Below, piece by piece: positions 3,093 to 60,658 of a stretch of DNA of 64,000 nucleotides. The notes below the pieces were generated by a model that searched no databases, was not told the DNA's origin, and worked only from the letters and a program-made list of their open reading frames with translations. How positions within the stretch are numbered: the first letter of the stretch is position 1; each line of letters begins with the position of its first letter. This stretch comes from Minisyncoccota bacterium (GTDB taxonomy: Bacteria > Patescibacteriota > Minisyncoccia > 2-02-FULL-40-12 > IGHO2-01-FULL-4-A). Position numbers and translations under genes: made by a program. Where the stretch lies: positions 2,113 to 66,112 of the forward strand of contig DATDXQ010000028.1 in the NCBI GenBank assembly GCA_036517175.1. Direction: 5' to 3'.

Positions 3093-4466
3093 TCAGATGA
3101 TTCTACTCGTCTCTTTTACAGATTCCTCAAAAACACGAACACCTTCTTTGAGTGCGGCATCTGGTATGGTGAGTGGTGGCGCAAGCTTGATTGACTCACG
3201 CCCAGTGTGGACCAGTAACAAACCCTTCTGCATAGCAAGTTCACAAACACGGCTAGCAAAATCACCATCTGGCTCTCCGGTCCTTGATTTTTTGAATAAC
3301 ACCGCAGCCACAAGTCCTCGTCCGTTTATATGAGCAATGTGCTGAGGATATTTTTGCTTGATTTCGTTAAGCATGCCGAACAGAATCTCACCTTTTCTCG
3401 AAGACTCGCCGACCAAATTTCTTGATTCTATCTCTTCTAAATTAGCCAGCCCGGCGGCACACGCCAAAGCATTACCAGAATGAGTACTGTGTCCAACGTC
3501 AGCTAATTCCGCCAGATCAATCAGATCCCTTCTTCCAACAACCGCCGATAAGGGCAGGCTACTACTCAACCCCTTCCCAAGACAAATTAAATCCGGTTTT
3601 ATTTTATAGTGTTCGAAGGCAAACAACTTACCAGTTCTGCCAAAACCGCTTTGTATTTCATCGACAGTAATCAAAAGTTTGTTAATTTTTGCGAACTTAA
3701 TTAATTCGTCCAAATAAGGCTTGGGGTAAAATAATGCTCCCCAACCCTGATAGGCCTCAATCATGACCCCACACAAATTTTCTATTTTCAATCCTTTGCT
3801 AACAAGATCCTTTATATCACTCCTAAATTTCTCCGCCCAATCAATTTTTTTATTTTCCCAACTAAACGGGAAAGGTAACCGATGAATATTTGGATCAGAA
3901 AAACCAAAAACATTAATAAACTTGGCATTACCCTTTAGCGTTTGAGCAACACTTGAAACACCGTGCATATTCCCAAGAAAAGAAAGAACACCAATTTTGT
4001 TCTTATTCGTGAGTTGTCCGTTAACTCTCATTATCAAAACAGCACATTCAGCAACTTCTGTTCCAGAAGAAGCCAAGATAACTTTTTGGCAAAAATCTGG
4101 GGTCACATCAATAAGTTTTTTAGCAAATTTATTTTTTATATCAGTAGGATAATCGTAAGCATGCAGAAGATCATCATTAACCTGTCCAATTATTGCCTTT
4201 TTTATCTTCTTATTTGAATGTCCGCTATTCGCAACAAAAATAGTCGAGGTAAAATCAATCCATTTGTTACCGGCTCCGTCAAAAACGTTAAAATCGATTG
4301 CCCGATCCCAAGCCAGTGGTATCTGTCGTGGCGGCAGACCAACACCAAACCTACCGCCCCCTCTTATTATCTTGACTGTTTCTGGCGAAGGAATGGACGT
4401 TTTTATTATTCTGTATTTTGTCTTAACAAGAGTTACTTTTTTTGGTTTTAAGGAAAAATTATACAT
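3093..4466 (-). CDS. Class III PLP-dependent aminotransferase, probably a sugar aminotransferase.
   Basis: 457 aa. Class-III fold motifs: GSEAVE-like SGTEVAECA, and the DEIQSGFGRTG PLP region. Confidence 0.75.
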   Translation of the reverse strand: MYNFSLKPKKVTLVKTKYRIIKTSIPSPETVKIIRGGGRFGVGLPPRQIPLAWDRAIDFNVFDGAGNKWIDFTSTIFVANSGHSNKKIKKAIIGQVNDDLLHAYDYPTDIKNKFAKKLIDVTPDFCQKVILASSGTEVAECAVLIMRVNGQLTNKNKIGVLSFLGNMHGVSSVAQTLKGNAKFINVFGFSDPNIHRLPFPFSWENKKIDWAEKFRSDIKDLVSKGLKIENLCGVMIEAYQGWGALFYPKPYLDELIKFAKINKLLITVDEIQSGFGRTGKLFAFEHYKIKPDLICLGKGLSSSLPLSAVVGRRDLIDLAELADVGHSTHSGNALACAAGLANLEEIESRNLVGESSRKGEILFGMLNEIKQKYPQHIAHINGRGLVAAVLFKKSRTGEPDGDFASRVCELAMQKGLLLVHTGRESIKLAPPLTIPDAALKEGVRVFEESVKETSRII

Positions 4467-12694: not shown

Positions 12695-14122
12695 TTACTT
12701 CTTTTCGAACACAAAGTATAAATCTCTGTAAAGCTTGGTTTTAAGTTTATATTTTTTAAGAAACTCACGGCCAGAGTTCATTGATTTACTTGAAATTATT
12801 ACTTCGTCCGGGATACCAGAAGTCAAAAATTCTCTATCACCCAAATATCTATCCCCAGTTATGTGAAAAAACTGATAGTAGTTGTCACTCTGCAAAAAAG
12901 TCACGGCTTCGGCTGCCTCGTAAACAAATATAGACTTGTTTTTATCCAAATTACCAAGGTATTCTCGCAACTCCTTGGATCTAGTACTTTTGTAATCACC
13001 GGCGACCCAGGAACTGAACCCAATTTGATAAAATTGAAAAGCTATTATAACCGCAAAAATAATTGACCAGAAAAATTGCGGGGCCGCGCTTCTTAATAAC
13101 TTATTATTTACAAAATCATAAACCCTTGAAAAAGCGGATGGGGAAAAAATTAATGCCAGCACTTGGCCCGGGAAGAGATATCTATACCACCCAGGGGTTT
13201 TCAAGTAAGCAATCGCAATCAGTATCGCAAACAGAATGGCAACATTTTCCGCAAGTCCAATGGCTTGTTTCTTTCTAATCCTTAATAAATAAGAACAGAG
13301 CCAAAATAACATTGTTAATGCAAAATAACCTGGCGTCGTCTCTTTAAAAAATCTCTCCAAATTATTGGGTATAGCCGCTAAAATATCACCCAAGCCGGCA
13401 CTGTAATTATTTCCATAAAAAGACAAGACGCCAAAAACAGAATCTTTTTCTCCAAAGTAAGTTACAAAAAATAAAAGAACTAGAATCAAGAAAAATAGTC
13501 CAATAAAAAAGATATTATTACCAGTGAAATTAATTTTTTTTCTTCTGAGCCAGATGCAAATAAGGACAGCTGGAATAAGTAGAATAAATATAGGTTTTGT
13601 AACCACAACAAGACCACCAACAAGACCCAACAAAATACTTGGCACAATTTTTTTGTGACTTACTTCTTCAATTCGGTTCAACAACAACAAAAACAAAACC
13701 AAAAAAAACATACCGGGCACTTCACCCAGCACAAGCTTGCCATTACCATAAACAGGTGCAAAACTAGCGAGCAACAAAGTAGAAACAATGGCATGCTTAT
13801 AACCAAATAATCTATATATTAAAAAGAAAACCACCACCAGCAGCAACAATATAAAAACAACCATGGGAATTCTGGCTTGCAACAGTCCAACACCAAAAAA
13901 CTTAAACACCAAACCTATGGGATAGGTAACAGAGTACCCCGTTGTAACATACCCGGCAATCGACTCGTCTAACTCCCCCGGCGAAGATTGGACACCAAAG
14001 ACACCGAAATGCGCAAAGTTCCTGGCAACTTGCATAAAAAGCCCATCATCATACCAAGTACGTGGAGATTCAGTGAGTTTATAGGTGGAAATAAAAATAA
14101 CCACTAAAAGTATCGGAATCAA
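12695..14122 (-). CDS. Polytopic membrane glycosyltransferase, GT-C fold (ArnT / PMT-like).
   Basis: 475 aa with about 11 predicted TM helices. N-terminal loop DDGLFMQVARNF resembles the GT-C first loop with a DD/DE motif. TTG start as in the ORF track. Confidence 0.5.
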   Translation of the reverse strand: MIPILLVVIFISTYKLTESPRTWYDDGLFMQVARNFAHFGVFGVQSSPGELDESIAGYVTTGYSVTYPIGLVFKFFGVGLLQARIPMVVFILLLLVVVFFLIYRLFGYKHAIVSTLLLASFAPVYGNGKLVLGEVPGMFFLVLFLLLLNRIEEVSHKKIVPSILLGLVGGLVVVTKPIFILLIPAVLICIWLRRKKINFTGNNIFFIGLFFLILVLLFFVTYFGEKDSVFGVLSFYGNNYSAGLGDILAAIPNNLERFFKETTPGYFALTMLFWLCSYLLRIRKKQAIGLAENVAILFAILIAIAYLKTPGWYRYLFPGQVLALIFSPSAFSRVYDFVNNKLLRSAAPQFFWSIIFAVIIAFQFYQIGFSSWVAGDYKSTRSKELREYLGNLDKNKSIFVYEAAEAVTFLQSDNYYQFFHITGDRYLGDREFLTSGIPDEVIISSKSMNSGREFLKKYKLKTKLYRDLYFVFEKK

Positions 14123-14185
14123 AACTAGTAGTTTTTTATAGGGAGTAGATATCGTTGCATGTTTTGGTTGTAATGCCTTATAGCA

Positions 14186-14320
14186 CCGTCAAAAGGGTGG
14201 ATTGTCCCGATTCTGCTCTGCAGAATCGAGGATCCTCGATTTTCATGAATGAAAATCGGGACATGGTCATCGAGCAGTATAATTATTATTCACTGTGAGA
14301 TGAATCCACGCTTTTGACGG
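14186..14320. repeat. Nested palindromic element in the intergenic region.
   Basis: Outer 18-bp inverted repeat CCGTCAAAAGGGTGGATT / AATCCACGCTTTTGACGG with 1 mismatch. Inner 9-bp inverted repeat GTCCCGATT / AATCGGGAC. Internal perfect palindromes AATCGAGGATCCTCGATT and TCTGCAGA. Confidence 0.6.
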
Positions 14321-14379
14321 AATGCAGCAACTTCGCTGGAGTTGCAAATGGTGATAGAAGGCATTACACCAAAAACTTT

Positions 14380-15792
14380 TTATATGAATTTTATTTTTTT
14401 CATTGCAAAAGCAACCATTCTCAACAAAAGCCAACCGTGCTTCCAACGACTTATGTTTGTCGTACCATAGGTCCTCTCCCTGTAATGAACCGGCAAATCA
14501 ACTATTTTTAAATTAAGCTTAGCTGCCCCAAAAATCAGATCAAAGTCTCCGAAAGGATCAAAGTCTCCAAAGAATTTGCGGCCATTTTTTATATCTTCAT
14601 AATCAGTTCGCCACAAAACCTTAGTACCACAAAGGGTATCCTTAATCTTCTGCCCCAAAAGCCAACTAAACGCAAAACCAAAAAACTTGTTGCCCAAATA
14701 ATTAAGGAAGCGCATTGACTCTTTTTCCATAGGATAAACCAGCCTTGATCCGTTTATGAATTCTCCACGTCCAGTCACGATCGCATCATAAAATTTGTGC
14801 AATTCATGAGGGGGCACAGTCATATCAGCGTCATAAATCATTAATATATCGTTGCTCGCCATATCAAAACCCTTCCTAACAGCGTCACCCTTTCCCCTTC
14901 CATCCTGGACGGCAAACTTGATATTTTTTGATCCCCTATATTTGGCGACAGAAATTTTTATTTTTTCAAGAGTACCGTCTGATGAACCACCCTCAACAAA
15001 AATAAGTTCTGTTCTACTCCCAAGATCAGGTAATTCTTTGATTATTTTGTCTATCATGCCAGCCTCATTTCTTGCGGCAACAACAATCGAAACCGATGGC
15101 GCGGTCTCAAAATTATTACGCAGAGGAACAGGCCTTGCAACCAAATAGTTTATTAAACCCAACTTGTTGAAAGGCCAGATATTTCCTAAAAAATTGTTCA
15201 GAAGATCGGAAACAAAAGGTATTCTCTTGGGCATTATCATTTTTTTCCCTTTCTTTATTATCTCAAAACCAGATAAATAAAATAGGTTTTCTATATCATT
15301 TTCTGATATCCAATTCTGGAGTTTCGAGGGCATTCTGACTCCAAGCTTGGAGCCAATATTCAAAATCGGCTCCCAAATCTGACTATATTGTGTTACCACT
15401 ATTTTACTGCGTGGATAAACAACCGTGTGCAGTTTATTAAAAAGATCCTGTACATCATCCAAATAACCAACTAGGTCTGACATAACTATAAAATCAAATT
15501 TTTCCGCAATATGTTCAATTGCCACAGAACTAAATTCAAGTGGAGAATTGGGGTATTTTTGAGACGCCAACCTAACCATGACTTCACTAATGTCACTGCC
15601 CAAACCCCTGGATGGTATGAGTTTGGCGATAAGGTCTCCGATGCCACAACCTATCTCCAAAACCCTTTTGCCCGAAGGAATCAAAAATGGCAGAAGTTTG
15701 TCTTCTACATATCCATAATAATAACTATTCTTTTTTTTCCAGTATTCTCGTTTAGGAGCTACCTGATCAAAATATTCTTTAATTTTAGGCAT
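14380..15792 (-). CDS. Bifunctional class-I SAM methyltransferase plus family-2 glycosyltransferase fusion.
   Basis: N-terminal VLEIGCGIGDLIAKL (MTase motif I). C-terminal VSIVVAARNEAGMIDKII...DADMTV (GT2 DxD). Confidence 0.65.
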   Translation of the reverse strand: MPKIKEYFDQVAPKREYWKKKNSYYYGYVEDKLLPFLIPSGKRVLEIGCGIGDLIAKLIPSRGLGSDISEVMVRLASQKYPNSPLEFSSVAIEHIAEKFDFIVMSDLVGYLDDVQDLFNKLHTVVYPRSKIVVTQYSQIWEPILNIGSKLGVRMPSKLQNWISENDIENLFYLSGFEIIKKGKKMIMPKRIPFVSDLLNNFLGNIWPFNKLGLINYLVARPVPLRNNFETAPSVSIVVAARNEAGMIDKIIKELPDLGSRTELIFVEGGSSDGTLEKIKISVAKYRGSKNIKFAVQDGRGKGDAVRKGFDMASNDILMIYDADMTVPPHELHKFYDAIVTGRGEFINGSRLVYPMEKESMRFLNYLGNKFFGFAFSWLLGQKIKDTLCGTKVLWRTDYEDIKNGRKFFGDFDPFGDFDLIFGAAKLNLKIVDLPVHYRERTYGTTNISRWKHGWLLLRMVAFAMKKIKFI

Positions 15793-52318: not shown

Positions 52319-52449
52319 TGTCTAACTACTATTTTAAAGAATAAACCAACAATACCATAGAAATATTGTATTGTAAAGTACATTGCTGAGCTGGGACTTA
52401 GTTGGAAATCGATATTATTGAATATCCAAGAGATTTACGCTTTCGCAAA

Positions 52450-52485
52450 TTAAAAAGCCGAGCATAACTCGGTCCTACATTTTAT
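52450..52485 (-). terminator. Rho-independent terminator.
   Basis: gccgagc-ataa-ctcggtc hairpin. Minus-strand T-run with a conserved TTTTTAATTTGCGAA tail. Confidence 0.5.
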
Positions 52486-52487
52486 GA

Positions 52488-52700
52488 TTAGGTTTTACTT
52501 TTAAAATGGTCGAACTTATACCAAAGATCATCAAAATACGCCTTACAAGATGTGCAATCAGCAAAATGCAGAAGATCTTCATATGTTAGTCCGCTAACAC
52601 ACATCTTATGAAATTGCCCCACAGTGAAGTGGGTTCCTAGAGGAATTTCTAATCCAGTTGGTTTTGGTTTCTTAAATCTCTTTAATAACCATACTAGCAT
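52488..52700 (-). CDS. Small Cys/His-containing hypothetical protein.
   Basis: 70 aa. AGGAG SD. TTGACA-N17-TATTGT promoter at 52732-52760. Confidence 0.45.
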   Translation of the reverse strand: MLVWLLKRFKKPKPTGLEIPLGTHFTVGQFHKMCVSGLTYEDLLHFADCTSCKAYFDDLWYKFDHFKSKT

Positions 52701-52731
52701 TTTAGTCTCCTGTTATTAAGGAATAGGAAAA

Positions 52732-52760
52732 ACAATACTTCTTCTTGTTAGCATTGTCAA
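52732..52760 (-). promoter_or_regulatory. Sigma70-like promoter TTGACA-N17-TATTGT.
   Basis: Exact -35 hexamer and 17-nt spacer. Lies 30 nt upstream of the AGGAG SD of the 52700 gene. Confidence 0.5.
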
Positions 52761-52793
52761 TCTATTGGGGAAGGTTACTTAAGGGAGTAAGAA

Positions 52794-53870
52794 TTACTTT
52801 TTATTGTTCTGCAAAGGGTGGGATTTATTCTTCTCTACCCTTTCTATCATAAATTTTACAGCCTCGTTCGTATTGATAAATTGTAGCTTTATATCTGGAA
52901 GGTTGTTGTGAAATACCCTAAATATTTCATCCGCAAAAGCTTGTCCAATCATAGGAACCTTATCAAAATCAAATACGACAGATTTAAATTTATCTAAACC
53001 AGACAATACTCTACGTGCTTGGGAGCGAGAAACAAATACACCACCTATTGTATACAGCTTTATCTTAACTTCAGTTTTATCAAATCCTTGATAACCGTCC
53101 TCATTTTCTCCAGTATATTTTCTAAATATATCGTTTAGGTGCCTATCTGAATCTATCGAAATAGAAAAACTAACTTTAGTACCCTTTCTTATAGCTTTTG
53201 GTTTTTGTAAGAAAACATCATTAATTCTGTTGTTTACTATAACTAGTCTGTATCCAAAACTATCTAAATTAAACAGGTCGCCAGCCCTTGAAGTAAAGAA
53301 AATACCCTCACCAGAATGAGATTTAGGTTGTGTGGTTGTTTTTCCTTTCAATAAATCCTGAATGGCCTCGAGCTCCGATTTAAGAGTTCTTTTGACCATT
53401 ATGTTTTTATATACTCCAATTCCAGAATCTATTACATCAAAGAAAAGCTTCTTATTTTCAATTCTGACCTCGACCGTAATATTCTTTGATTTTGAATGCT
53501 CAATAGCATTGTTGAGCATCTCAGAAAAAGCATAAGTAAAAATACTCCTAACATTTTCCTTGAGGGTCAAGATAAGGGGAAACTTATTCTCTAGTTCATT
53601 CAAAACCTTGTGCTCTTCCAGCCCCTTATTCTTTAACGTTTTTTTTATTTTGTTAGGAAAAAGTTCTAAGTGGTTCGCAGCGTATTTAGGATTTAGATAT
53701 GAAGCCTTACTAGTTGAGCCGGTCTTTACTATTTTTCTCTCATTGACCAACTGTTTTAATAAAAAGCTTATATATTGCCTAGAAACGCCAAATATAGAGA
53801 CTAGATCCCTAGTTTTTAATTGTTTTTTTTGCTCTAAAATATTTAGTATTGTTTCTTTAGACAACTTCAT
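52794..53870 (-). CDS. Single-polypeptide wHTH + GHKL (HATPase_c) ATPase + STAS-like (DUF4325) protein.
   Basis: N-terminal HTH (LKTRDLVSIFGVSRQYISFLL). N-box NNAIEHS and G-box DSGIGV. C-terminal VVFDFDKVPMIGQAFADEIFRV, typical of DUF4325. Tandem TTGACA boxes with TATACT 7 nt from the ATG suggest a leaderless start. Confidence 0.6.
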   Translation of the reverse strand: MKLSKETILNILEQKKQLKTRDLVSIFGVSRQYISFLLKQLVNERKIVKTGSTSKASYLNPKYAANHLELFPNKIKKTLKNKGLEEHKVLNELENKFPLILTLKENVRSIFTYAFSEMLNNAIEHSKSKNITVEVRIENKKLFFDVIDSGIGVYKNIMVKRTLKSELEAIQDLLKGKTTTQPKSHSGEGIFFTSRAGDLFNLDSFGYRLVIVNNRINDVFLQKPKAIRKGTKVSFSISIDSDRHLNDIFRKYTGENEDGYQGFDKTEVKIKLYTIGGVFVSRSQARRVLSGLDKFKSVVFDFDKVPMIGQAFADEIFRVFHNNLPDIKLQFINTNEAVKFMIERVEKNKSHPLQNNKK

Positions 53871-54133
53871 TGACTTAAGTATATCAGTTGTAAAGCGGTT
53901 GTCAAGTAGTCTGGGGACGGTTGTCAACTTGGTTGTAAAGTTAGTGGCCGAGCTAGGTCTTCGTTGCTTCGCTCCTCCGAAGCTTTAGCAAAGGAGGGGG
54001 CATTTATTGATACCGAATATCCGGGAGATTTACTATTTTGCTACAAATTAAAAAGCGCCCTTCGATAAACTCAGAGCACTTCTTAATCTCAGTTTACACT
54101 GAGCTTGTCGAAGTGTTGCGGGGACAATCAATC

Positions 54134-54219
54134 GTTGGAACTACTTCTAAGCGATTAGTTGAGAAAGTTTTTAGGTATTACTTAAAAATAAAACCTATCG
54201 ATTAAGATAGGTGTTGGAA
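54134..54219 (-). repeat. Conserved 3'-end element copy A (GATTAGTTGA box plus terminator hairpin), flanked by GTTGGAA.
   Basis: Homologous to 54741-54840 and 58916-59030. Hairpin cctatc/gatagg. Confidence 0.55.
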
Positions 54220-54222
54220 ATA

Positions 54223-54633
54223 TCATCTACGGCCAGACCAGTTTTTACCACAGTCATCGCACCAATAGGCAGTAAAATCATATTCAGATTTTGATTTTAG
54301 GTTTGGGTGTTGGCATCTTTTTTGCAGTTCTATCAATTCATTTTCTACTACAGTAAGTTGGGCTTGAACTCCCTTTTTTCGAGACTCAATTTTTTTTCGG
54401 AGCTCAATTACATTATTCTGGGTAGCCTGAACAGATTCCTTAAATTCTTGACATCGGCAAGCGTTACAGCTTGTCCCAACTTTAATATTTTCTGACAATC
54501 CAATGTGATTATGATAATTGCGTGGGTGGCCACATTCACAGATTAATTCTGGATTGTAACGGCCAAAGACAGAGTGTGATACTTCGCTCACGCTCAACTC
54601 TTTGTTGTAAATTATCTGCCTAGAGAATATCAC
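54223..54633 (-). CDS. Zn-finger / coiled-coil small protein.
   Basis: 136 aa with no internal Met. CECGH...CNACRC and C-terminal CQHP...CDDCG. Central coiled coil. Non-ATG start; the exact start is uncertain. Confidence 0.45.
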   Translation of the reverse strand: MIFSRQIIYNKELSVSEVSHSVFGRYNPELICECGHPRNYHNHIGLSENIKVGTSCNACRCQEFKESVQATQNNVIELRKKIESRKKGVQAQLTVVENELIELQKRCQHPNLKSKSEYDFTAYWCDDCGKNWSGRR

Positions 54634-54740
54634 CCAAAAACCTTTTAATCAATATCCCTGCTGTCCCTCGATTTCCTCGGGATAAATCATTCCTTCGATA
54701 GTTCGGCAGGCACTTCGGCCGTGAGCCCAGCACCGAATGG

Positions 54741-54840
54741 CTCACTACTTGATCAGGGCAAGACTGCAAGCGATTAGTTGAAAGGGTGTTTAAATATTAC
54801 TTAGAAAATAAAAAAGAGGGATAAATCCCTCATCTTGGAA
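54741..54840 (-). repeat. Conserved 3'-end element copy B.
   Basis: GATTAGTTGA box at 54772-54781 plus hairpin gaggga/tccctc overlapping the RidA stop codon. Confidence 0.55.
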
Positions 54841-55276
54841 TAGCAGCAATTCCTCTGATTTCTACCATCGTATCTTCCAAGGGGTACTCCCACGGCACTT
54901 CTGATACCCAAACCTGACACCTGGCAGGCATGTTTCCTTTTTCTCTTGTAATACCGTATTGAGCAAAAAATTCACAGTAGGCAGAATTATAATCTTCACG
55001 GGATTTCTTTCGGTCTTTACAATCTTTCAAAAATACATCCATTGCTACAAACGAGCTGGCATCACCGCCTGCCTCCTCAACGATAGCAAGCATATTTTTC
55101 AATACTTGAGCGGTCTGTGGCCCATAACCACCTTCAACAACTGGCTCGCCATCACGGCTTTTATCATTTCCTGTTTGCCCAGCAAGAAAAAGAATTTTGT
55201 GGTTCATCGGGTCTACTAATACACCCTGACTGTATGCACCTGGAGTGGGAGTCTTATCAGTAAAAATATTCTGCAT
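54830..55276 (-). CDS. RidA/YjgF/Endoribonuclease L-PSP family protein.
   Basis: GAYSQGV..., GPQTAQVLKNM, VDVFL and the C-terminal PARCQVWVSEV...VEIRGIAA pattern. AAGGAG SD at the ATG at 55276. Confidence 0.65.
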   Translation of the reverse strand: MQNIFTDKTPTPGAYSQGVLVDPMNHKILFLAGQTGNDKSRDGEPVVEGGYGPQTAQVLKNMLAIVEEAGGDASSFVAMDVFLKDCKDRKKSREDYNSAYCEFFAQYGITREKGNMPARCQVWVSEVPWEYPLEDTMVEIRGIAAIPR

Positions 55277-55324
55277 TGTCTTTCTCCTTGTCAAAAATCA
55301 AAGTGATATTATCCTATCATATAT

Positions 55325-55591
55325 TTACAATAAGTCTAGCCCGGCTGATTTATCAGAACAAAAAAGCCGAGGGTTAGTCGGCATTTTGGGTAGTGCCCAA
55401 TTTGTAGGTGGATGGCGCAAGGGCTTCTTTATTCCACAATCCCAACAGTGACCACAATCGCTTATTAAATAATCGTGGTCGCAGGCCCACTTACCTACAT
55501 CGTCAGCACTAATTCTTTTTTTGAGGCCACTCAAACGAATTCTTAACACAAGATATTTAGCATTAGGGGCACGTTCGTATTCTGCTTTCAT
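55325..55591 (-). CDS. Small Cys-rich protein.
   Basis: CDHDYLISDCGHCWDCG cluster. The ATG at 55589-55591 lies 1 nt after the stop of the upstream gene. A hairpin/terminator is embedded in its last 15 codons. Confidence 0.4.
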   Translation of the reverse strand: MKAEYERAPNAKYLVLRIRLSGLKKRISADDVGKWACDHDYLISDCGHCWDCGIKKPLRHPPTNWALPKMPTNPRLFCSDKSAGLDLL

Positions 55592-55592
55592 T

Positions 55593-55811
55593 TTATTTCC
55601 AACCCAATACTTTCCAACCGTGTTCAGCATATAGGCCAAGGCCGTCTTTTCCTTCACAGCATTCAAGGAATGCATTTTCTGTATCAGACCAATAGAAATC
55701 GCCTGTAGAAACTTTTACACCAGGTCCTTCAAAGCGAAGCTTTACTGGTCTCGCCGTTCTCTTGGATGGTTCTGTGGTTTTCCAATTTCTATTTCTTGCT
55801 TTGGTAGCCAT
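55593..55811 (-). CDS. Small basic hypothetical protein (P1).
   Basis: 72 aa. GGAGGAAGAGA SD. Promoter/operator module upstream. Confidence 0.5.
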   Translation of the reverse strand: MATKARNRNWKTTEPSKRTARPVKLRFEGPGVKVSTGDFYWSDTENAFLECCEGKDGLGLYAEHGWKVLGWK

Positions 55812-55846
55812 TCTCTTCCTCCGATAATTTCAATGAACCTGGAAAC

Positions 55847-55875
55847 AAAATACACCTTATTGGTGTATTTTGCAA
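55847..55875 (-). promoter_or_regulatory. Promoter TTGCAA-N17-TATTTT with an embedded operator palindrome AAAATACACC-N5-GGTGTATTTT.
   Basis: Perfect 10-bp inverted repeat spanning the spacer. A near-identical copy sits at 57824-57852. Confidence 0.55.
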
Positions 55876-56072
55876 AATGCCAACCAGGTCTGGGACCCGG
55901 GAAAATTGTACTCGCCGCCTACTGGTGCTGGGCATACCACGACTTCTGTCTCTGGCATTTCGGAGCTCTCGCTCCTCAACTGTCACTCGCCAAAAGGTAT
56001 GTACCACACCTGCTGGCTTTGGTGTTTGGGCAAATCAAAAAGCGGCTAATGCCGCTTTAAACAACTGTTCAA

Positions 56073-56357
56073 TTAGTAAATAGCGAGGGTTTGTCCATTT
56101 ATTACTATCGCCACATCCCTATCCAACGAAGTACATTCAGAATCTACAACAAAATCATCGTTTTTCGTCCGTATCAAAAGAACCAGATGTGCTGGAAATC
56201 CCTCCTTCACTACAAGATCAAAACTAATATCCCCGCTAGAAACATCGCGTAGTTTTTTTCTTGTTTCAAAAACCGCTTCTGAATTTTCTATTGTACGCCC
56301 AGTCTCCTCCAGTGCTATAATCCGATCTTCTTGAGCAGATAACTGCCTTATTTTCAT
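56073..56357 (-). CDS. Hypothetical protein.
   Basis: 95 aa. ATG at 56355-56357 with an AGGAG SD. TTGACA-N17-TATTAT promoter at 56386-56414. The ORF-track start at 56435 is an over-extension. Confidence 0.45.
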   Translation of the reverse strand: MKIRQLSAQEDRIIALEETGRTIENSEAVFETRKKLRDVSSGDISFDLVVKEGFPAHLVLLIRTKNDDFVVDSECTSLDRDVAIVINGQTLAIY

Positions 56358-56623
56358 AACGACTCCTATTTTAAAAGACAATACAATAATACAACCTACA
56401 TGTGGTATTGTCAATCTACACTTTGGCCTGCACATCCACTCTATTGAGCTCTGTATTTCTTCGTTCTCACTCAGTCACTGGCCTCAGTACAAAATTACCT
56501 TCATTCGCTTGTTGCAGAGCTTCGACAGAATTGCCTGCCTGCCGTAGCTTTAGCAAAGTAGGGTGAGGAGTTGGTAAAAATAAAACCGAGGAGAGCTCGG
56601 TATTGGTAAAACGTAATTATTTA

Positions 56624-57358
56624 TTAGTATTCTGCGACTGTTAAATTCATGGATAAATCTAAAAAGGAATCTACGCAGAGAAATGGCCCACCGGGGGTTT
56701 CAAATGTTCTTTTATTTTGTAAGACTGGTTCGACACACACATAATCTTTAGGTGCATCGGTCCACAAGACAAGTTGGGATTTGACTGGCGCAAACGCTCC
56801 TCCAAGCTCCATCATTATATTTTTGCTTGGCATAGCGATAAGAATGGCCTCACTACTTATTCCTACTGATCTCGATTCACAAGAAAAACCATTGTAGGCA
56901 GCTCCACCATTCAAAACTCTTACAGTGCTCTCGTCTTTACATCCAAAATACGGATGAAATGCTGGAAGCACTGGGGCTGGTATAACTTCTTTGTCATCCA
57001 TCCGATCTATACGTAATGTCATCTTCAATCCATTAGTATATGCGTAGACTCCAATCTCGTATCCTAAAGACCATGGATAGCTTTCATTCCCAGGATGATG
57101 AAAAATTAGTTTGGCATTATTAGATTCGAGTTTTACATCTCGGGCCTCCAAATCTCGTAGATAACCATGCTTCTTCTTGCTTCTTGGGGATTGACCAAAC
57201 CATGGAGCACATATATGACAGCCACCACGTGCCTTATCTCCAATTTGGCGCCAAGGATACAATATCTCTAGCTTATCTACTACGGCAGAGGTAATAGTCC
57301 CGCCAGTAGAAGAGAGGTGAATTTCCGTTTGGCCATTTCTAATAACAATATCTTCCAT
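56624..57358 (-). CDS. D-hexose-6-phosphate mutarotase / aldose 1-epimerase family (YeaD-like).
   Basis: GGCHICAPWFG and HGYLR motifs. ATG at 57356-57358 with a GGAGG SD. TTGACA-N17-TATTTT promoter at 57400-57428. Confidence 0.6.
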   Translation of the reverse strand: MEDIVIRNGQTEIHLSSTGGTITSAVVDKLEILYPWRQIGDKARGGCHICAPWFGQSPRSKKKHGYLRDLEARDVKLESNNAKLIFHHPGNESYPWSLGYEIGVYAYTNGLKMTLRIDRMDDKEVIPAPVLPAFHPYFGCKDESTVRVLNGGAAYNGFSCESRSVGISSEAILIAMPSKNIMMELGGAFAPVKSQLVLWTDAPKDYVCVEPVLQNKRTFETPGGPFLCVDSFLDLSMNLTVAEY

Positions 57359-57565
57359 CGTGTCCTCCAGACCTAGCAAATTGTTAAATAGATAATAAAA
57401 AAATAGCACTTCATTGCTATTTTGTCAATATATTCTTGCCCTTCGTGATTACACTCAGGGCTGCGTCGGCCTTCGCCTCCTTGTTGCAGAAGTGTTGCGT
57501 GATTGGCAACAAATACTGCTTGATTTGAAAGAAGTCTACACTTTTGCAAATTAAAAAGTGCGATA

Positions 57566-57793
57566 TTATCGCACTTCAAATCTTCGGCCAAACCAATAAC
57601 AGCCGGGTTCTTCTTGAAGTTCCATTCGGCCACCCTCGTTATGCCATTGGGCAGGATTGTCTGCAAAAAGAGTTCTGCACTTATCGGAAGGTATAAATTC
57701 TTTTACAGTATATTTTCTTCCTTTTGTCAGCGCTGGTCCAATACCTTCCATTTTTTCATCAACACATTCGACCGTCTGGCCTTCTTGAAACAT
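57566..57793 (-). CDS. Small hypothetical protein (P2).
   Basis: 75 aa. AAGGAG SD. The operator-containing promoter at 57824-57852 is paralogous to the P1 promoter. Confidence 0.5.
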   Translation of the reverse strand: MFQEGQTVECVDEKMEGIGPALTKGRKYTVKEFIPSDKCRTLFADNPAQWHNEGGRMELQEEPGCYWFGRRFEVR

Positions 57794-57823
57794 ACACTTC
57801 TCCTTGTTAATTTAGCTGAAAAC

Positions 57824-57852
57824 AAAATACACCAATAAGGTGTATTTTGCAA
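57824..57852 (-). promoter_or_regulatory. Promoter TTGCAA-N17-TATTTT with operator palindrome AAAATACACC-N5-GGTGTATTTT (copy 2).
   Basis: Same palindrome arms as 55847-55871. The loop is AATAA rather than TTATT. Confidence 0.55.
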
Positions 57853-57949
57853 CTTATGCCAATCTTGTCTCATTTGTTGCGGAACTCTTACGCAGTTGAC
57901 ACCTTTTGATACCGAATATACAAAAGATTTGCAATTTTGCTCTGGTATA

Positions 57950-58146
57950 AAAAGTGAACCCCCGGGTCGTGGCCACGACATCGGGGGTTAATGTGCACGG
58001 ATTGTTTACCGTGCTGCCTGTTTTCGACCTTGCGGTCGGGCGACCTCCAATAGGGTTTGGGGAGCCTAGGCTCCTTATCCGCCTGTGGCGGACCTACCTT
58101 CGAACCCTCCTCTCGAGAAGCTACCTCAAGAGAAACTCAATGTTGT
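57950..58146 (-). ncRNA. Standalone roughly 200-nt GC-rich structured RNA with its own promoter and terminator. Class not identified.
   Basis: TTGACT-N17-TATACT promoter at 58153-58181. GC-rich terminator hairpin at 57957-57989 plus T5. No ORF. Much more GC-rich than the surrounding sequence. Confidence 0.55.
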
Positions 58147-58346
58147 GAATTAAGTATAGCATATCCTAAGTATAAAGTCAATAGCAACCAAAAACAGCCC
58201 TTGAAAGCTGTTTTTGCAAAGTGCCAAATGGGTCTGGGACCTGGAAATTTGTTGCAGAATTAGGACTTCGTTGGTATTTAATATTACCGGGTATCAAAGA
58301 AATTTATCAGTTTAATCTTGTAAATTAAAAGTCCGCAAAGCGGACA

Positions 58347-58529
58347 TTAGATAGATTTGGGAATTTTACCTTTACCATTGCAGGTCGGGCAGGTTGTAGT
58401 TCTGGTTTCTGGCATTGGAAAACCAAATAATCCTATATATGCAGCGTTCATGATTGTTTCTGTCTTTGAGCCAGACCCGCTGCAATTCCAGCAGATCTGC
58501 TCTTTATTTTGATCTTTGTTGGTTGCCAC
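58347..58529 (-). CDS. Small zinc-ribbon protein.
   Basis: 61 aa. CWNC...CPTC. ATG with a GGGGGTGA SD. TTGACA-N17-TATTGT promoter at 58568-58596. Confidence 0.5.
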   Translation of the reverse strand: MATNKDQNKEQICWNCSGSGSKTETIMNAAYIGLFGFPMPETRTTTCPTCNGKGKIPKSI

Positions 58530-58698
58530 CATACTATCACCCCCTATCTGTGTTAAGGAACAATAAAACAATACGCCATTTCTGGCGTATTGTCAATATT
58601 TGCACTTCGGCCTGTTGGCCTCAGTACAAAATTACCTTCGTAATTTATTTTTGTACCCTTCGGCTGTTGCCTACGGGCACTGCGTCGCCTTCGCTCCT

Positions 58699-58718
58699 TG
58701 TTGCGGGGGCAGGATTTG
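58699..58718 (-). repeat. 20-nt direct repeat of the tRNA-fMet 3' end (att-like).
   Basis: TGTTGCGGGGGCAGGATTTG is identical to 60584-60603 inside or adjacent to the tRNA gene. Confidence 0.6.
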
Positions 58719-58915
58719 GTTTCGCCTCTCGTTGGCTTCCGCCTCCTCGGGCTAACCACCACCTCGCGTGACTTTATGCCAATTGCATAAAGTCACATGC
58801 TCCGGCGTTCAAATACTGACGAAAGTGACACGGGTCACTTCCTCTCCCCGCAAACATATACGATAAATATAAACGGCTCACATGGTGAGCCGTTTATATT
58901 TTGGGGCAATCAAAT

Positions 58916-59030
58916 GTTGGAACCCTTCGACTACGCTCAGGACAGGCTTGTAAAAGATTAGTTGAGAATATATTTAGATATTATTTGGAGAATAAAAACG
59001 GCATTTAGCCGTATATATTTGTTGGTGAAG
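58916..59030 (-). repeat. Conserved 3'-end element copy C.
   Basis: GATTAGTTGA box at 58956-58965. Hairpin cggc/gccg at the stop codon of the 59005 gene. GTTGGAA / GTTGGTGAA flanks. Confidence 0.5.
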
Positions 59031-60585: not shown

Positions 60586-60658
60586 TTGCGGGGGCAGGAT
60601 TTGAACCTGCGATCTTTGGGTTATGAGCCCAACGAGATGACCACTTCTCCACCCCGCG
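60586..60658 (-). tRNA. Initiator tRNA-fMet (anticodon CAT).
   Basis: Cloverleaf folded by hand. C1:A72 mismatch. D-stem GAGA/TCTC with A11:U24. Three G-C pairs at the base of the anticodon stem (GGG/CCC). T-loop GGTTCAAATCC. Terminator hairpin at 60548-60580. Confidence 0.8.

What the first reader, a model, noticed from the sequence alone, without database searches (positions are those of the whole stretch)
14186..14320. Roughly 135-bp nested palindromic element between the MTase-GT2 fusion gene and a GT-C gene
There is an 18-bp outer inverted repeat with one mismatch. It encloses a 9-bp inner inverted repeat and at least two perfect internal palindromes (AATCGAGGATCCTCGATT and TCTGCAGA). 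This is far more structure than a simple terminator needs. The element sits in the 5' region of the GT-C gene. It could be a cis-regulatory RNA (attenuator or riboswitch-like), a MITE with 18-bp TIRs, or a protein-binding site.
Basis: seen in the sequence. Interest (0 to 1): 0.5.

Follow-up and report, generated by a model that had tools for sequence, protein, structure and literature searches.

The report
Nested palindromic repeat elements in CPR bacterium
The palindrome between the two glycosyltransferase genes is not a regulator of those genes: it is one copy of a previously undescribed, multi-copy, hairpin-forming repeat of ultra-small groundwater bacteria (Patescibacteria), and a second, smaller mobile palindrome is inserted inside it.

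Summary
The 18-bp inverted repeat (14186-14203 / 14303-14320) is the invariant central stem of a larger element of about 212 nt (14161-14376). That element fills the spacer between the MTase-GT2 stop codon and the GT-C start.

About 40 homologous copies of about 160 nt occur in nine Patescibacteria MAGs. They lie between unrelated genes, in both orientations. Stems P1, P2 and P4 covary strongly and the loops are conserved.

The inner palindromes (14204-14262, core AATCGAGGATCCTCGATT) belong to a separate 50-91-nt cruciform module. It is nested at the same position in three genomes and occurs alone elsewhere. At least 120 groundwater metagenome contigs carry it, often in frame inside housekeeping genes (GroEL, PolA, GatA/B), which is the behaviour of Rickettsia palindromic elements (RPEs).

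The closest relatives of the window lack the element. In one of them MTase-GT2 and GT-C overlap by 4 nt. The riboswitch/attenuator reading is therefore rejected.

The MITE reading is only partly right. The 18-bp repeats are internal, no target-site duplication (TSD) is visible, and no transposase was found.

Orthologous copies are far better conserved than saturated synonymous sites, so a host function remains possible. Rfam and the searchable literature hold neither family.

The parts
14161..14376 (+). Whole copy of the large 'rod' repeat. It is 216 nt by its inverted repeats. The family profile matches 14166-14377. The strand given is the one that tolerates wobble pairs.
   Evidence: the repeat finder I1/I2/I6; nhmmer with the family profile, E = 4.8e-44; fold z = -11.8; RNAalifold consensus on 16 other copies gives the same architecture.
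14161..14185 (+). P1, 5' arm of the outer stem. It pairs with 14350-14376. The inner part GCCTTATAGCA is conserved in the family. The outer part differs in every copy but stays complementary.
   Evidence: 24 of 29 P1 pairs show changes on both sides.
14186..14203 (+). P3, 5' arm. It is nearly invariant across the family and has a conserved central mismatch.
   Evidence: Divergent copies covary (CCGTTGAAAG / CTTTCAACGG).
14204..14262 (.). Nested small cruciform module, GTCCCGAT-hairpinA-ATCGAGGATCCTCGAT-hairpinC-ATCGGGAC. Hairpin A is 14208-14228, the core palindrome 14224-14241 and hairpin C 14237-14258. It is a net 57-nt insertion between G and C of the family's GCAYGGT bulge.
   Evidence: Absent from 22 of 25 aligned copies; present at the same spot in the window, L039 and L114. 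Solo copy in L104 5352-5409 and a copy in frame in gatA of L040. At least 120 metagenome loci. DNA fold z = -6.9.
14263..14266 (+). Remainder of the conserved bulge between P3 and P4 (family consensus GCAYGGT).
   Evidence: Alignments A2 and A6.
14267..14303 (+). P4 apical hairpin. The arms are 14267-14278 and 14292-14303, with a tandem G.A/A.G mismatch. The loop is 14279-14291. The conserved TATAAT lies at 14278-14283.
   Evidence: two stem versions (TTGC.. and CATC..) plus L086 and L073 covary.
14303..14320 (+). P3, 3' arm, AATCCACGCTTTTGACGG.
14327..14345 (+). P2 side hairpin. The stem is 14327-14332 / 14340-14345. The invariant loop TCGCTGG is 14333-14339.
   Evidence: 5 of 6 pairs change on both sides (GCAACC, GAATTC, GTCAGC and GTCCGC versions) while the loop stays invariant.
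14350..14376 (+). P1, 3' arm, GGTGATAGAAGGCATTACACCAAAAAC. It ends 3 nt before the MTase-GT2 stop codon.
14380..15792 (-). Upstream gene: methyltransferase-GT2 fusion (470 aa). This is context, not part of the element.
   Evidence: Pfam Methyltransf_23 and Glycos_transf_2.
12695..14122 (-). Downstream gene: GT-C / GT39-like PMT_2 glycosyltransferase. The start is GTG at 14104 as called in other assemblies, or TTG at 14122. This is context.
   Evidence: Pfam PMT_2; gene calls; NCBI name 'glycosyltransferase family 39 protein', Candidatus Paceibacterota.

Best explanation
The feature is a copy of a non-coding, interspersed palindromic repeat family of Paceibacteria/Yanofskybacteria-type Patescibacteria (CPR). 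A typical copy is about 160 nt. It folds back into a rod made of three stacked stems:
- a long outer stem (P1);
- an invariant 18-bp stem with one mismatch (P3);
- an apical hairpin with tandem G.A mismatches (P4).
A 19-nt side hairpin (P2) carries an invariant loop.

The window copy also carries a member of a second, smaller palindromic family in the P3/P4 bulge. This 59-nt four-way cruciform module inserts anywhere, including in frame into genes.

Shown: both families behave as non-autonomous mobile or copy-propagated DNA. The composite was inserted into what was ancestrally a zero-length junction between two overlapping, probably translationally coupled, glycosyltransferase genes.

Inferred: propagation goes through a folded single strand, recognised at the invariant stem and loops by a trans-acting enzyme that has not been identified. 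The wobble pattern suggests this is the window + strand.

Inferred: in the window the element is read as its complement within the minus-strand operon mRNA, if the two genes are still co-transcribed. There it forms a hairpin of about -90 kcal/mol that uncouples the two cistrons and may alter mRNA processing or stability, as REP, ERIC and Correia elements do. It is not a dedicated regulator of GT-C.
For: Family and copy number:
- A scan of genome contigs with the 18-mer found paired arms about 60 nt apart in Patescibacteria MAGs only.
- Profile search gives about 40 copies in 9 MAGs. JACPNJ01 has at least 13; MGJI01 and JACOZZ01 have 6 each.

Structure:
- 90% of cells pair.
- 34 of 61 pairs change on both sides.
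- The covariation score is 0.351 against 0.108 shuffled and at most 0.093 when the partners are slid.
- RNAalifold independently finds the same fold.

Context:
- All copies lie outside the large ORFs, though about ten of my crude ORF calls run into an element.
- Many lie a few nt from ORF ends, in any orientation.
- No neighbouring protein recurs.

Mobility:
- Two L067 copies are absent from the syntenic window sites.
- The window site is empty in L241 (genes overlap by 4 nt), L242 and L243.
- The rod-plus-module composite occurs at three different loci in three genomes with shared module arms.
- Near-identical copies (up to 98%) sit at non-orthologous loci in different genomes.

Nested module:
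- It occurs alone and inside genes.
- It occurs in at least 120 metagenome loci with hypervariable hairpin arms.
- 41 of 122 copies lie inside ORFs, and every copy in an ORF of at least 200 aa has a length of 2 mod 3.
- It is translated in all three phases.
- Hosts include Cpn60, DNA_pol_A, GatB, amidase/GatA and a P-type ATPase.
Against: - MITE hallmarks are missing. The termini are the least conserved part, no target-site duplication is seen at filled/empty sites or in the flanks, and no transposase or autonomous parent was found.
- Copies do not cluster by genome: the best match is in another genome for 33 of 39 copies, so there is no sign of a recent burst.
- Orthologous copies downstream of gatA in three genomes keep 71-86% identity, and 100% in P3, while four-fold degenerate sites are saturated at 31-39%. 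Decaying selfish DNA would not show this unless gene conversion or selection acts.
- The strand signal is modest: 46 against 17 cells and 23 against 13 pairs.
- Orientation does not track GC skew, 21 against 17.
Confidence: 0.68

Rival explanations
1. The rod element is a host-maintained structured nucleic acid. It could be a new class of small structured RNA transcribed from the window + strand orientation. It could instead be a single-stranded-DNA or cruciform signal, for example for chromosome organisation, replication or recombination, kept at several loci per genome.
For: - Stems covary while loops, bulge and junctions stay conserved, the classical signature of a folded functional molecule.
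- P2 is a local hairpin on one arm only, and it still covaries.
- The conserved mismatches are all purine-purine on the + strand.
- Wobble-compatible pairs favour one strand.
- Orthologous copies are conserved far above saturated synonymous sites.
- There are no within-genome bursts.
Against: - There is no conserved promoter or terminator, and the flanks are unrelated between copies.
- Copies are squeezed a few nt from ORF ends in random orientation.
- G.U pairs are rare (about 2% of cells) for an RNA with this much covariation.
- 57-80-nt palindromes are tolerated inside it.
- Copies are present or absent between close relatives.
Confidence: 0.2
2. It is a cis-regulatory RNA (attenuator, riboswitch-like leader or processing site) that evolved to control the GT-C gene.
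For: It lies in the 5' region of GT-C and is extremely stable as RNA on the coding strand (z = -8.9).
Against: - It is absent from the three nearest syntenic relatives, and in L241 the two genes overlap.
- The same element lies beside gatA, tRNA genes and many unrelated genes, as often antisense as sense.
- The stem is followed by no U-tract, and the scan finds no terminator-like site.
- Rfam gives no match.
Confidence: 0.03
3. It is a site for a structure-specific recombinase, a folded-strand recombination site analogous to an integron attC, and it marks mobile gene cassettes.
For: - The structure is strand-biased and folded, with conserved mismatches or extrahelical positions, as in attC.
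- Inverted pairs flank single genes in L067 (1218-1383 and 3244-3473) and L092 (6538-6699 and 7330-7495).
Against: - The gene flanked in L067 is conserved in synteny in the window without either copy, so it is not a cassette.
- Orientations are inconsistent.
- No integrase recurs nearby.
- The conserved part is the centre, not the ends.
Confidence: 0.05

Closest known systems
ERIC / IRU (enterobacterial repetitive intergenic consensus, ~127 bp)
   Same: - It is an imperfect palindrome of similar size.
- It is intergenic, close to gene ends, and found in either orientation.
- Copy number is low to moderate.
- Copies are present or absent between related genomes.
- From my own knowledge (Hulton 1991; Wilson & Sharp 2006), not checked in a paper here: ERIC has a highly conserved central inverted repeat, larger variants made by internal insertions, conservation above neutral expectation, and an unknown mobilisation mechanism.
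- ERIC is listed as a ~127-bp MITE, and its downstream copies affect mRNA decay (PMC3184786).
   Different: - There is no sequence similarity, and the host phylum is different.
- This family has a covarying side hairpin with an invariant loop.
- ERIC-type copies are reported with TIRs, direct repeats and flanking TA (PMC3184786). These were not seen here.
Correia/NEMIS and other bacterial MITEs
   Same: It is small, non-coding, multi-copy and palindromic, is co-transcribed with neighbouring genes, and is non-autonomous (PMC3184786, PMC10969869).
   Different: MITEs are defined by conserved terminal inverted repeats, target-site duplications and a related transposase. Here the termini are the most variable part, and neither a duplication nor a transposase was found.
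REP / REPIN with RAYT transposases
   Same: These are hairpin-forming extragenic repeats thought to move as folded single strands. They form inverted doublets that make long hairpins (PMC3116915).
   Different: - REPs are 20-40 nt with a GTAG head, and the conserved units lie at the ends of a REPIN.
- No RAYT gene could be looked for in whole genomes with these tools.
Rickettsia palindromic elements (RPEs), for the nested 59-nt module
   Same: These are palindromic selfish DNA inserted in frame into unrelated housekeeping genes and translated as extra peptide loops, as well as into intergenic DNA (PMC10969869; here).
   Different: - The module is much shorter (50-91 nt against ~105-150 nt).
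- It has a four-way architecture: an invariant outer stem and central 16-bp palindrome, plus two hypervariable hairpin arms.
- Any of three reading phases is used.
- The host phylum is different.

Membership tests
MITE | Small (<~500 bp), non-coding, multiple copies per genome | tested here: met
   Copies are about 160 nt, with about 40 copies in 9 MAGs and up to at least 13 per MAG. No ORF is conserved within the element (inspection of the copies).
MITE | Conserved terminal inverted repeats at the element ends | tested here: not met
   The whole element is an inverted repeat, but the outermost 10-15 bp differ in every copy. The conserved 18-bp repeat is internal.
MITE | Target-site duplication flanking the insertion | tested here: inconclusive
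   No direct repeat is seen at the ends of about 25 copies or at the filled/empty pairs L067 versus window. The compared genomes are about 30% diverged, so 1-2-nt duplications cannot be excluded. For the small module, no duplication was found in 105 copies.
MITE | Related autonomous IS or transposase with the same ends | tested here: inconclusive
   No recurrent protein was found within about 3-4 kb of 35 loci. Whole genomes could not be scanned.
REP/REPIN-RAYT | 20-40-nt palindromic units with a conserved 5' tetranucleotide, paired as inverted doublets, with a cognate RAYT gene in the genome | tested here: not met
   The unit architecture differs: the core is conserved and the ends are variable. 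The presence of a RAYT gene is not testable with these tools.
Riboswitch / attenuator of GT-C | Conserved position and orientation upstream of homologous genes | tested here: not met
   The element is absent upstream of the three closest GT-C homologues. Elsewhere it lies beside unrelated genes in both orientations.
Any Rfam 15 RNA family | Covariance-model match at or near the gathering score | tested here: not met
   Only tRNAs reach gathering scores. The best hits on the element have E >= 1 and fall far below their cut-offs.
Intrinsic terminator | GC-rich hairpin followed by a U-tract on the transcribed strand | tested here: not met
   No terminator-like site was found in 13900-14700 or around L087. 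On the minus strand the stem is followed by CAUGCAACG.
RPE-like in-frame palindromic element (nested module only) | Palindromic repeat inserted in frame in unrelated protein-coding genes with the reading frame preserved | tested here: met
   41 of 122 copies lie inside ORFs. All copies in ORFs of at least 200 aa have lengths of 2 mod 3. All three phases are used. Hosts include Cpn60, PolA, GatA and GatB. There is no sequence homology to the Rickettsia families, so this is analogy, not membership.
Integron attC | Conserved R/L boxes at the ends, uniform orientation in cassette arrays, adjacent intI | tested here: not met
   The ends are variable, the copies are dispersed in both orientations, and no integrase recurs nearby.

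The most novel reading that the evidence does not exclude
The ~160-nt rod element may be more than decaying selfish DNA. It may be a host-maintained structured nucleic acid of Paceibacteria: a new class of structured RNA, or a single-strand or cruciform DNA signal. It would be kept at several loci per genome under purifying selection and recognised through its invariant mismatched 18-bp stem and its loops TCGCUGG and GUAUAAU. The nested four-way module would be a new kind of mobile palindrome, one that colonises essential genes of streamlined CPR genomes and may be handled as a branch-migratable Holliday-junction-like structure.
Probability: 0.2. Interest if true: 0.75.

Novelty: new variant of a known kind. 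Interest (0 to 1): 0.55.

Why it matters
Patescibacteria (CPR) genomes are regarded as extremely streamlined, and I found no description of interspersed structured repeats in them. This locus leads to two such families.

The first is a ~160-nt rod-shaped repeat. Its core is conserved across genera far beyond neutral expectation, and its stems covary like those of a functional RNA.

The second is a 50-91-nt cruciform module that is abundant in groundwater metagenomes. It sits in frame inside essential genes such as GroEL, DNA polymerase I and GatA/B.

The practical consequences are these:
- Both families can mislead annotation. They can be taken for spurious regulatory RNAs, they split operons, and they add unexplained protein insertions.
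- They offer markers for strain typing of uncultivated CPR bacteria.
- They pose a clear mechanistic question: which enzyme recognises these folded structures in genomes that encode few transposases.

If the rod element proves to be host-functional, it would be a new structured nucleic-acid class in a major uncultivated radiation.

Tried and rejected
- **Other copies in the window:** none.
- **Viral contigs, plasmids, phages:** only chance single-arm 18-mer hits, or nothing.
- **Rfam:** nothing for the window copy or for typical copies.
- **Retron-like ncRNA:** the order outer stem, small hairpin, long hairpin on the minus strand resembles msr-msd. I rejected this because there are many copies, no reverse transcriptase nearby, and the wobble pattern favours the other strand.
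- **Internal promoter:** TATAAT is conserved in the P4 loop, with variants TAAAAT and TACAAT. There is no acceptable -35 element, and the scan finds no promoter. A transcript starting there would also lack the 5' arms whose covariation has to be explained.
- **Shine-Dalgarno-like GATAGGAGGCAT in the 3' arm of P1:** the distance to downstream starts is about 30 nt, and half the copies face away from genes.
- **Small ORF through the element:** interrupted by stop codons in many copies.
- **Composite transposon of inverted pairs:** the gene enclosed in L067 is syntenic in the window without the repeats.
- **Orientation against replication strand, using local GC skew:** no correlation, 21 against 17, and this is a weak proxy.
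- **DNA-uptake-sequence idea** (CCGTC... resembles the Neisseria DUS, from memory): copy number is far too low.
- **Strong strand claim from wobble pairs:** the first count was 27-39 against 3-11. It weakened to 46 against 17 cells and 23 against 13 pairs with 39 copies, so I treat it as suggestive only.
- **Literature:** searches for CPR or Patescibacteria together with MITE, REP, palindromic or RPE found nothing relevant.

Full report
**1. The observation**

The genes are MTase-GT2 (14380-15792) and the PMT_2/GT-C gene (12695-14104 or 14122; Pfam). The features are:
- the 18-nt inverted repeat at 14186-14203 / 14303-14320, with one mismatch;
- a 10-nt inner repeat;
- two 9-10-bp hairpins;
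- the perfect 18-nt palindrome AATCGAGGATCCTCGATT.

The structure extends further than reported. A 27-nt outer repeat lies at 14161-14187 / 14350-14376, and a side hairpin lies at 14327-14345.

It is far beyond chance. The 18-mer is expected 0.08 times. Fold z-scores are -8.9, -9.7 and -11.8. Five independent assemblies carry the identical sequence.

**2. It is a member of a repeat family**

The window holds no second copy. A scan of one genome per species with CCGTCAAAAGNGTGGATT returned 91 loci. Single hits are scattered over unrelated taxa. Paired, inverted hits about 60 nt apart occur only in Patescibacteria MAGs. These MAGs are labelled:
- Candidatus Yanofskybacteria (JACPNJ01, MGJI01, JACOZZ01, CAIUCV01);
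- 'Patescibacteria group' (JBBUDS01);
- Buchananbacteria (JAUSEE01);
- Minisyncoccia (JBEKBN01);
- a MAG labelled Saccharibacteria (CAYHQI01).

A profile search raised the count to about 40 copies, with up to at least 13 per MAG.

The window comes from a relative of these organisms. Its coding DNA is 67-73% identical and syntenic with Yanofskybacteria contigs. NCBI names its GT-C protein HEY4507135.1 from 'Candidatus Paceibacterota bacterium'.

**3. Anatomy** (alignments A2 and A6)

A typical copy is about 160 nt. Written on the window + strand, it contains:
- **P1**, a long outer stem. Its inner part is conserved (GCCTYATAGCA ... TGATAGRAGGC) with two invariant purine-purine mismatches. Its outer 10-15 bp differ in every copy yet remain complementary.
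- **P3**, the 18-bp stem. It is essentially invariant, with a conserved central mismatch.
- **A 7-nt bulge**, GCAYGGT.
- **P4**, with a tandem G.A/A.G mismatch and an apical loop GTATAAT....
- **P2**, a side hairpin between the 3' arm of P3 and the 3' arm of P1. Its loop TCGCTGG is invariant and its stem covaries (GCAACC, GAATTC, GTCAGC, GTCCGC).

On the structure I specified:
- 90% of cells pair, against 76% shuffled and at most 44% when the partners are slid;
- 34 of 61 pairs change on both sides;
- the covariation score is 0.351 against 0.108.

RNAalifold on 16 other copies finds the same fold, with 30 of 56 pairs compensated. In more divergent copies P3 also covaries.

**4. The inner palindromes are a second element**

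Twenty-two of the 25 aligned copies read ...GGATTGCAYGGT.... The window, L039 and L114 carry 57 extra nucleotides between the G and the C. The resulting 59-nt unit is GTCCCGAT-hairpinA-ATCGAGGATCCTCGAT-hairpinC-ATCGGGAC.

This unit also occurs in other contexts:
- alone in an intergenic region (L104 5352-5409);
- in frame inside gatA of L040, where orthologues lack it.

The two arms are hypervariable in sequence and length (9-30 nt), and most read as self-complementary hairpins; a naive outside-in count gives 1073 Watson-Crick, 69 G.T and 367 unpaired positions. The flanks show no conservation, no stem extension and no duplication.

Forty-one of the 122 copies lie inside ORFs. Every copy in an ORF of at least 200 aa has a length of 2 mod 3. 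This is consistent with a net insert that is a multiple of three, as in the window: the unit is 59 nt and the net gain is 57. The copies are translated in all three phases. Host genes include Cpn60/GroEL, DNA polymerase I, GatB, GatA, a P-type ATPase, a DEAD-box helicase and a subtilase. This is the behaviour described for Rickettsia palindromic elements (PMC10969869).

The three rod-plus-module composites share nearly identical module arms but sit at different loci with different P1 ends. The composite was therefore copied as a unit.

**5. Not a regulator of GT-C**

Copies lie outside the large ORFs, many only a few nt from ORF ends, although about ten of my crude ORF calls run into an element. 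Relative to the neighbouring genes, 8 are sense, 9 antisense, 5 lie between convergent genes and 1 lies between divergent genes.

The three closest GT-C homologues (62-65% identity) keep the same gene order but lack the element:
- In L241, MTase-GT2 and GT-C overlap by 4 nt.
- L242 has a 93-nt AT-rich spacer.
- L243 has a different palindrome in a 148-nt spacer.

Conversely, the two copies that flank a gene in L067 are missing from the syntenic window sites.

No promoter-like or terminator-like site is detected. Rfam has no match for the window copy or for typical copies.

**6. How it probably works**

Shown:
- It is a multi-copy repeat.
- It folds back on itself.
- It is present or absent between relatives.
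- The composite was propagated as a unit.
- No protein partner lies adjacent.

Suggestive only: the folded strand is the window + strand. A.C cells outnumber G.T cells on the minus strand, 46 to 17, or 23 to 13 counted by pairs. Extra U.G pairs appear in the + strand consensus. All conserved mismatches are purine-purine on the + strand.

Wobble pairs are nevertheless rare, about 2% of cells. Orientation tracks neither the neighbouring genes nor GC skew.

My inference is that this is a non-autonomous element copied through a folded single strand and recognised at P3 and the loops by an unidentified trans-acting enzyme. The complementarity of the variable stems may be kept partly by selection and partly by template-switch correction of quasi-palindromes. 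That mechanism is established knowledge and was not tested here.

In the window, the insertion separated two formerly overlapping cistrons. It places the complement of the element, a hairpin of about -90 kcal/mol, in the operon transcript. A plausible side effect is altered processing or stability of the mRNA, as reported for ERIC, REP and Correia elements (PMC3184786).

**7. What does not fit simple selfish DNA**

Downstream of gatA the element is orthologous in three genomes (flank homology). The four-fold degenerate sites of these genomes are saturated at 31-39% identity. The element nevertheless keeps 71-86% identity, and 100% in P3, with compensated changes in P1 and P4.

Copies do not cluster by genome: the best match lies in another genome for 33 of 39 copies. 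Either purifying selection, concerted evolution or horizontal spread is acting. I therefore keep a host-function reading at about 0.2.

**8. Comparison and novelty**

By architecture and behaviour the rod element is closest to ERIC/IRU, and the nested module is closest to RPEs. Neither is homologous to those families, and the defining MITE features fail or are inconclusive (see the membership table).

The following searches gave nothing:
- literature searches combining CPR, Patescibacteria or Parcubacteria with MITE, REP, palindromic or RPE;
- viral contigs, plasmids and phages, where neither family is present.

I rate the finding as a new variant of a known kind, namely bacterial interspersed palindromic repeats. 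Interest is moderate and would be higher if the conserved core proves to be functional.

Noticed in passing
L121-L240 (metagenome loci); e.g. L138 1241-1305, L205 1303-1358, L124 12492-12559, L152 2175-2230: The small cruciform module (GTCCCRAT...ATCGAGGATCCTCGAT...ATYGGGAC) is abundant in groundwater metagenomes. In about a third of cases it sits in frame inside housekeeping genes (GroEL, PolA, GatB, P-type ATPase, DEAD helicase). It encodes peptides such as GPD..IEDPR..NRD, VPI..NRGSSI..IGT or SR..SRILD..SGQ, depending on the phase.
   Followed up: partly
L243 880-1035: A relative of the window has a different palindromic insertion (CTAGAACTTATGTGTTTGAG ... CCAACGTATAAGTTCTAG) at the same MTase-GT2/GT-C junction. 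This suggests the junction is a recurrent landing site for palindromic elements.
   Followed up: no
L104 ~4330-4370 versus L040 2229-2283 versus L086 (gatA): At the gatA loop where L040 carries the module, L104 carries five tandem copies of CCAACTA (peptide LPTTNYQLPTT) and L086 carries nothing. The loop is hypervariable.
   Followed up: no
L067 3297-3373, L119 (5' part of its copy), L057 ~3760-3800: Other copies of the rod element carry different internal insertions. One is a ~75-nt double-hairpin insert between P2 and P3 (L067, L119). Another is a duplication or insertion in the P2 loop (L057). Nesting of palindromes is common in this family.
   Followed up: partly
L072, L081, L082, L101 (7339-7497), L038, L096 flanks: A subfamily of the rod element has a different and longer outer stem (CCCCATCAAAAATTAT-CCGCTCGCCATTA ... 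TAATGGCCTCGC-..-ATAATTTTTGATGGGG). This brings the hairpin to about 230 nt.
   Followed up: partly
L115 1059-1222 and 1247-1318: One rod-element copy ends 25 nt upstream of a tRNA gene.
   Followed up: no
window 55846-55872 and 57823-57849; also 52412-58996: A perfect 27-nt sequence, itself palindromic (CAAAATACACCTTATTGGTGTATTTTG), occurs twice about 2 kb apart. Several 24-49-nt repeats (including a perfect 24-mer at 56479 and 58616) are scattered among short minus-strand ORFs. This looks like a cluster of paralogous small genes with shared terminator-like hairpins.
   Followed up: no
window 60586-60658 (-): A tRNA gene, the only Rfam match at gathering score in the window.
   Followed up: no
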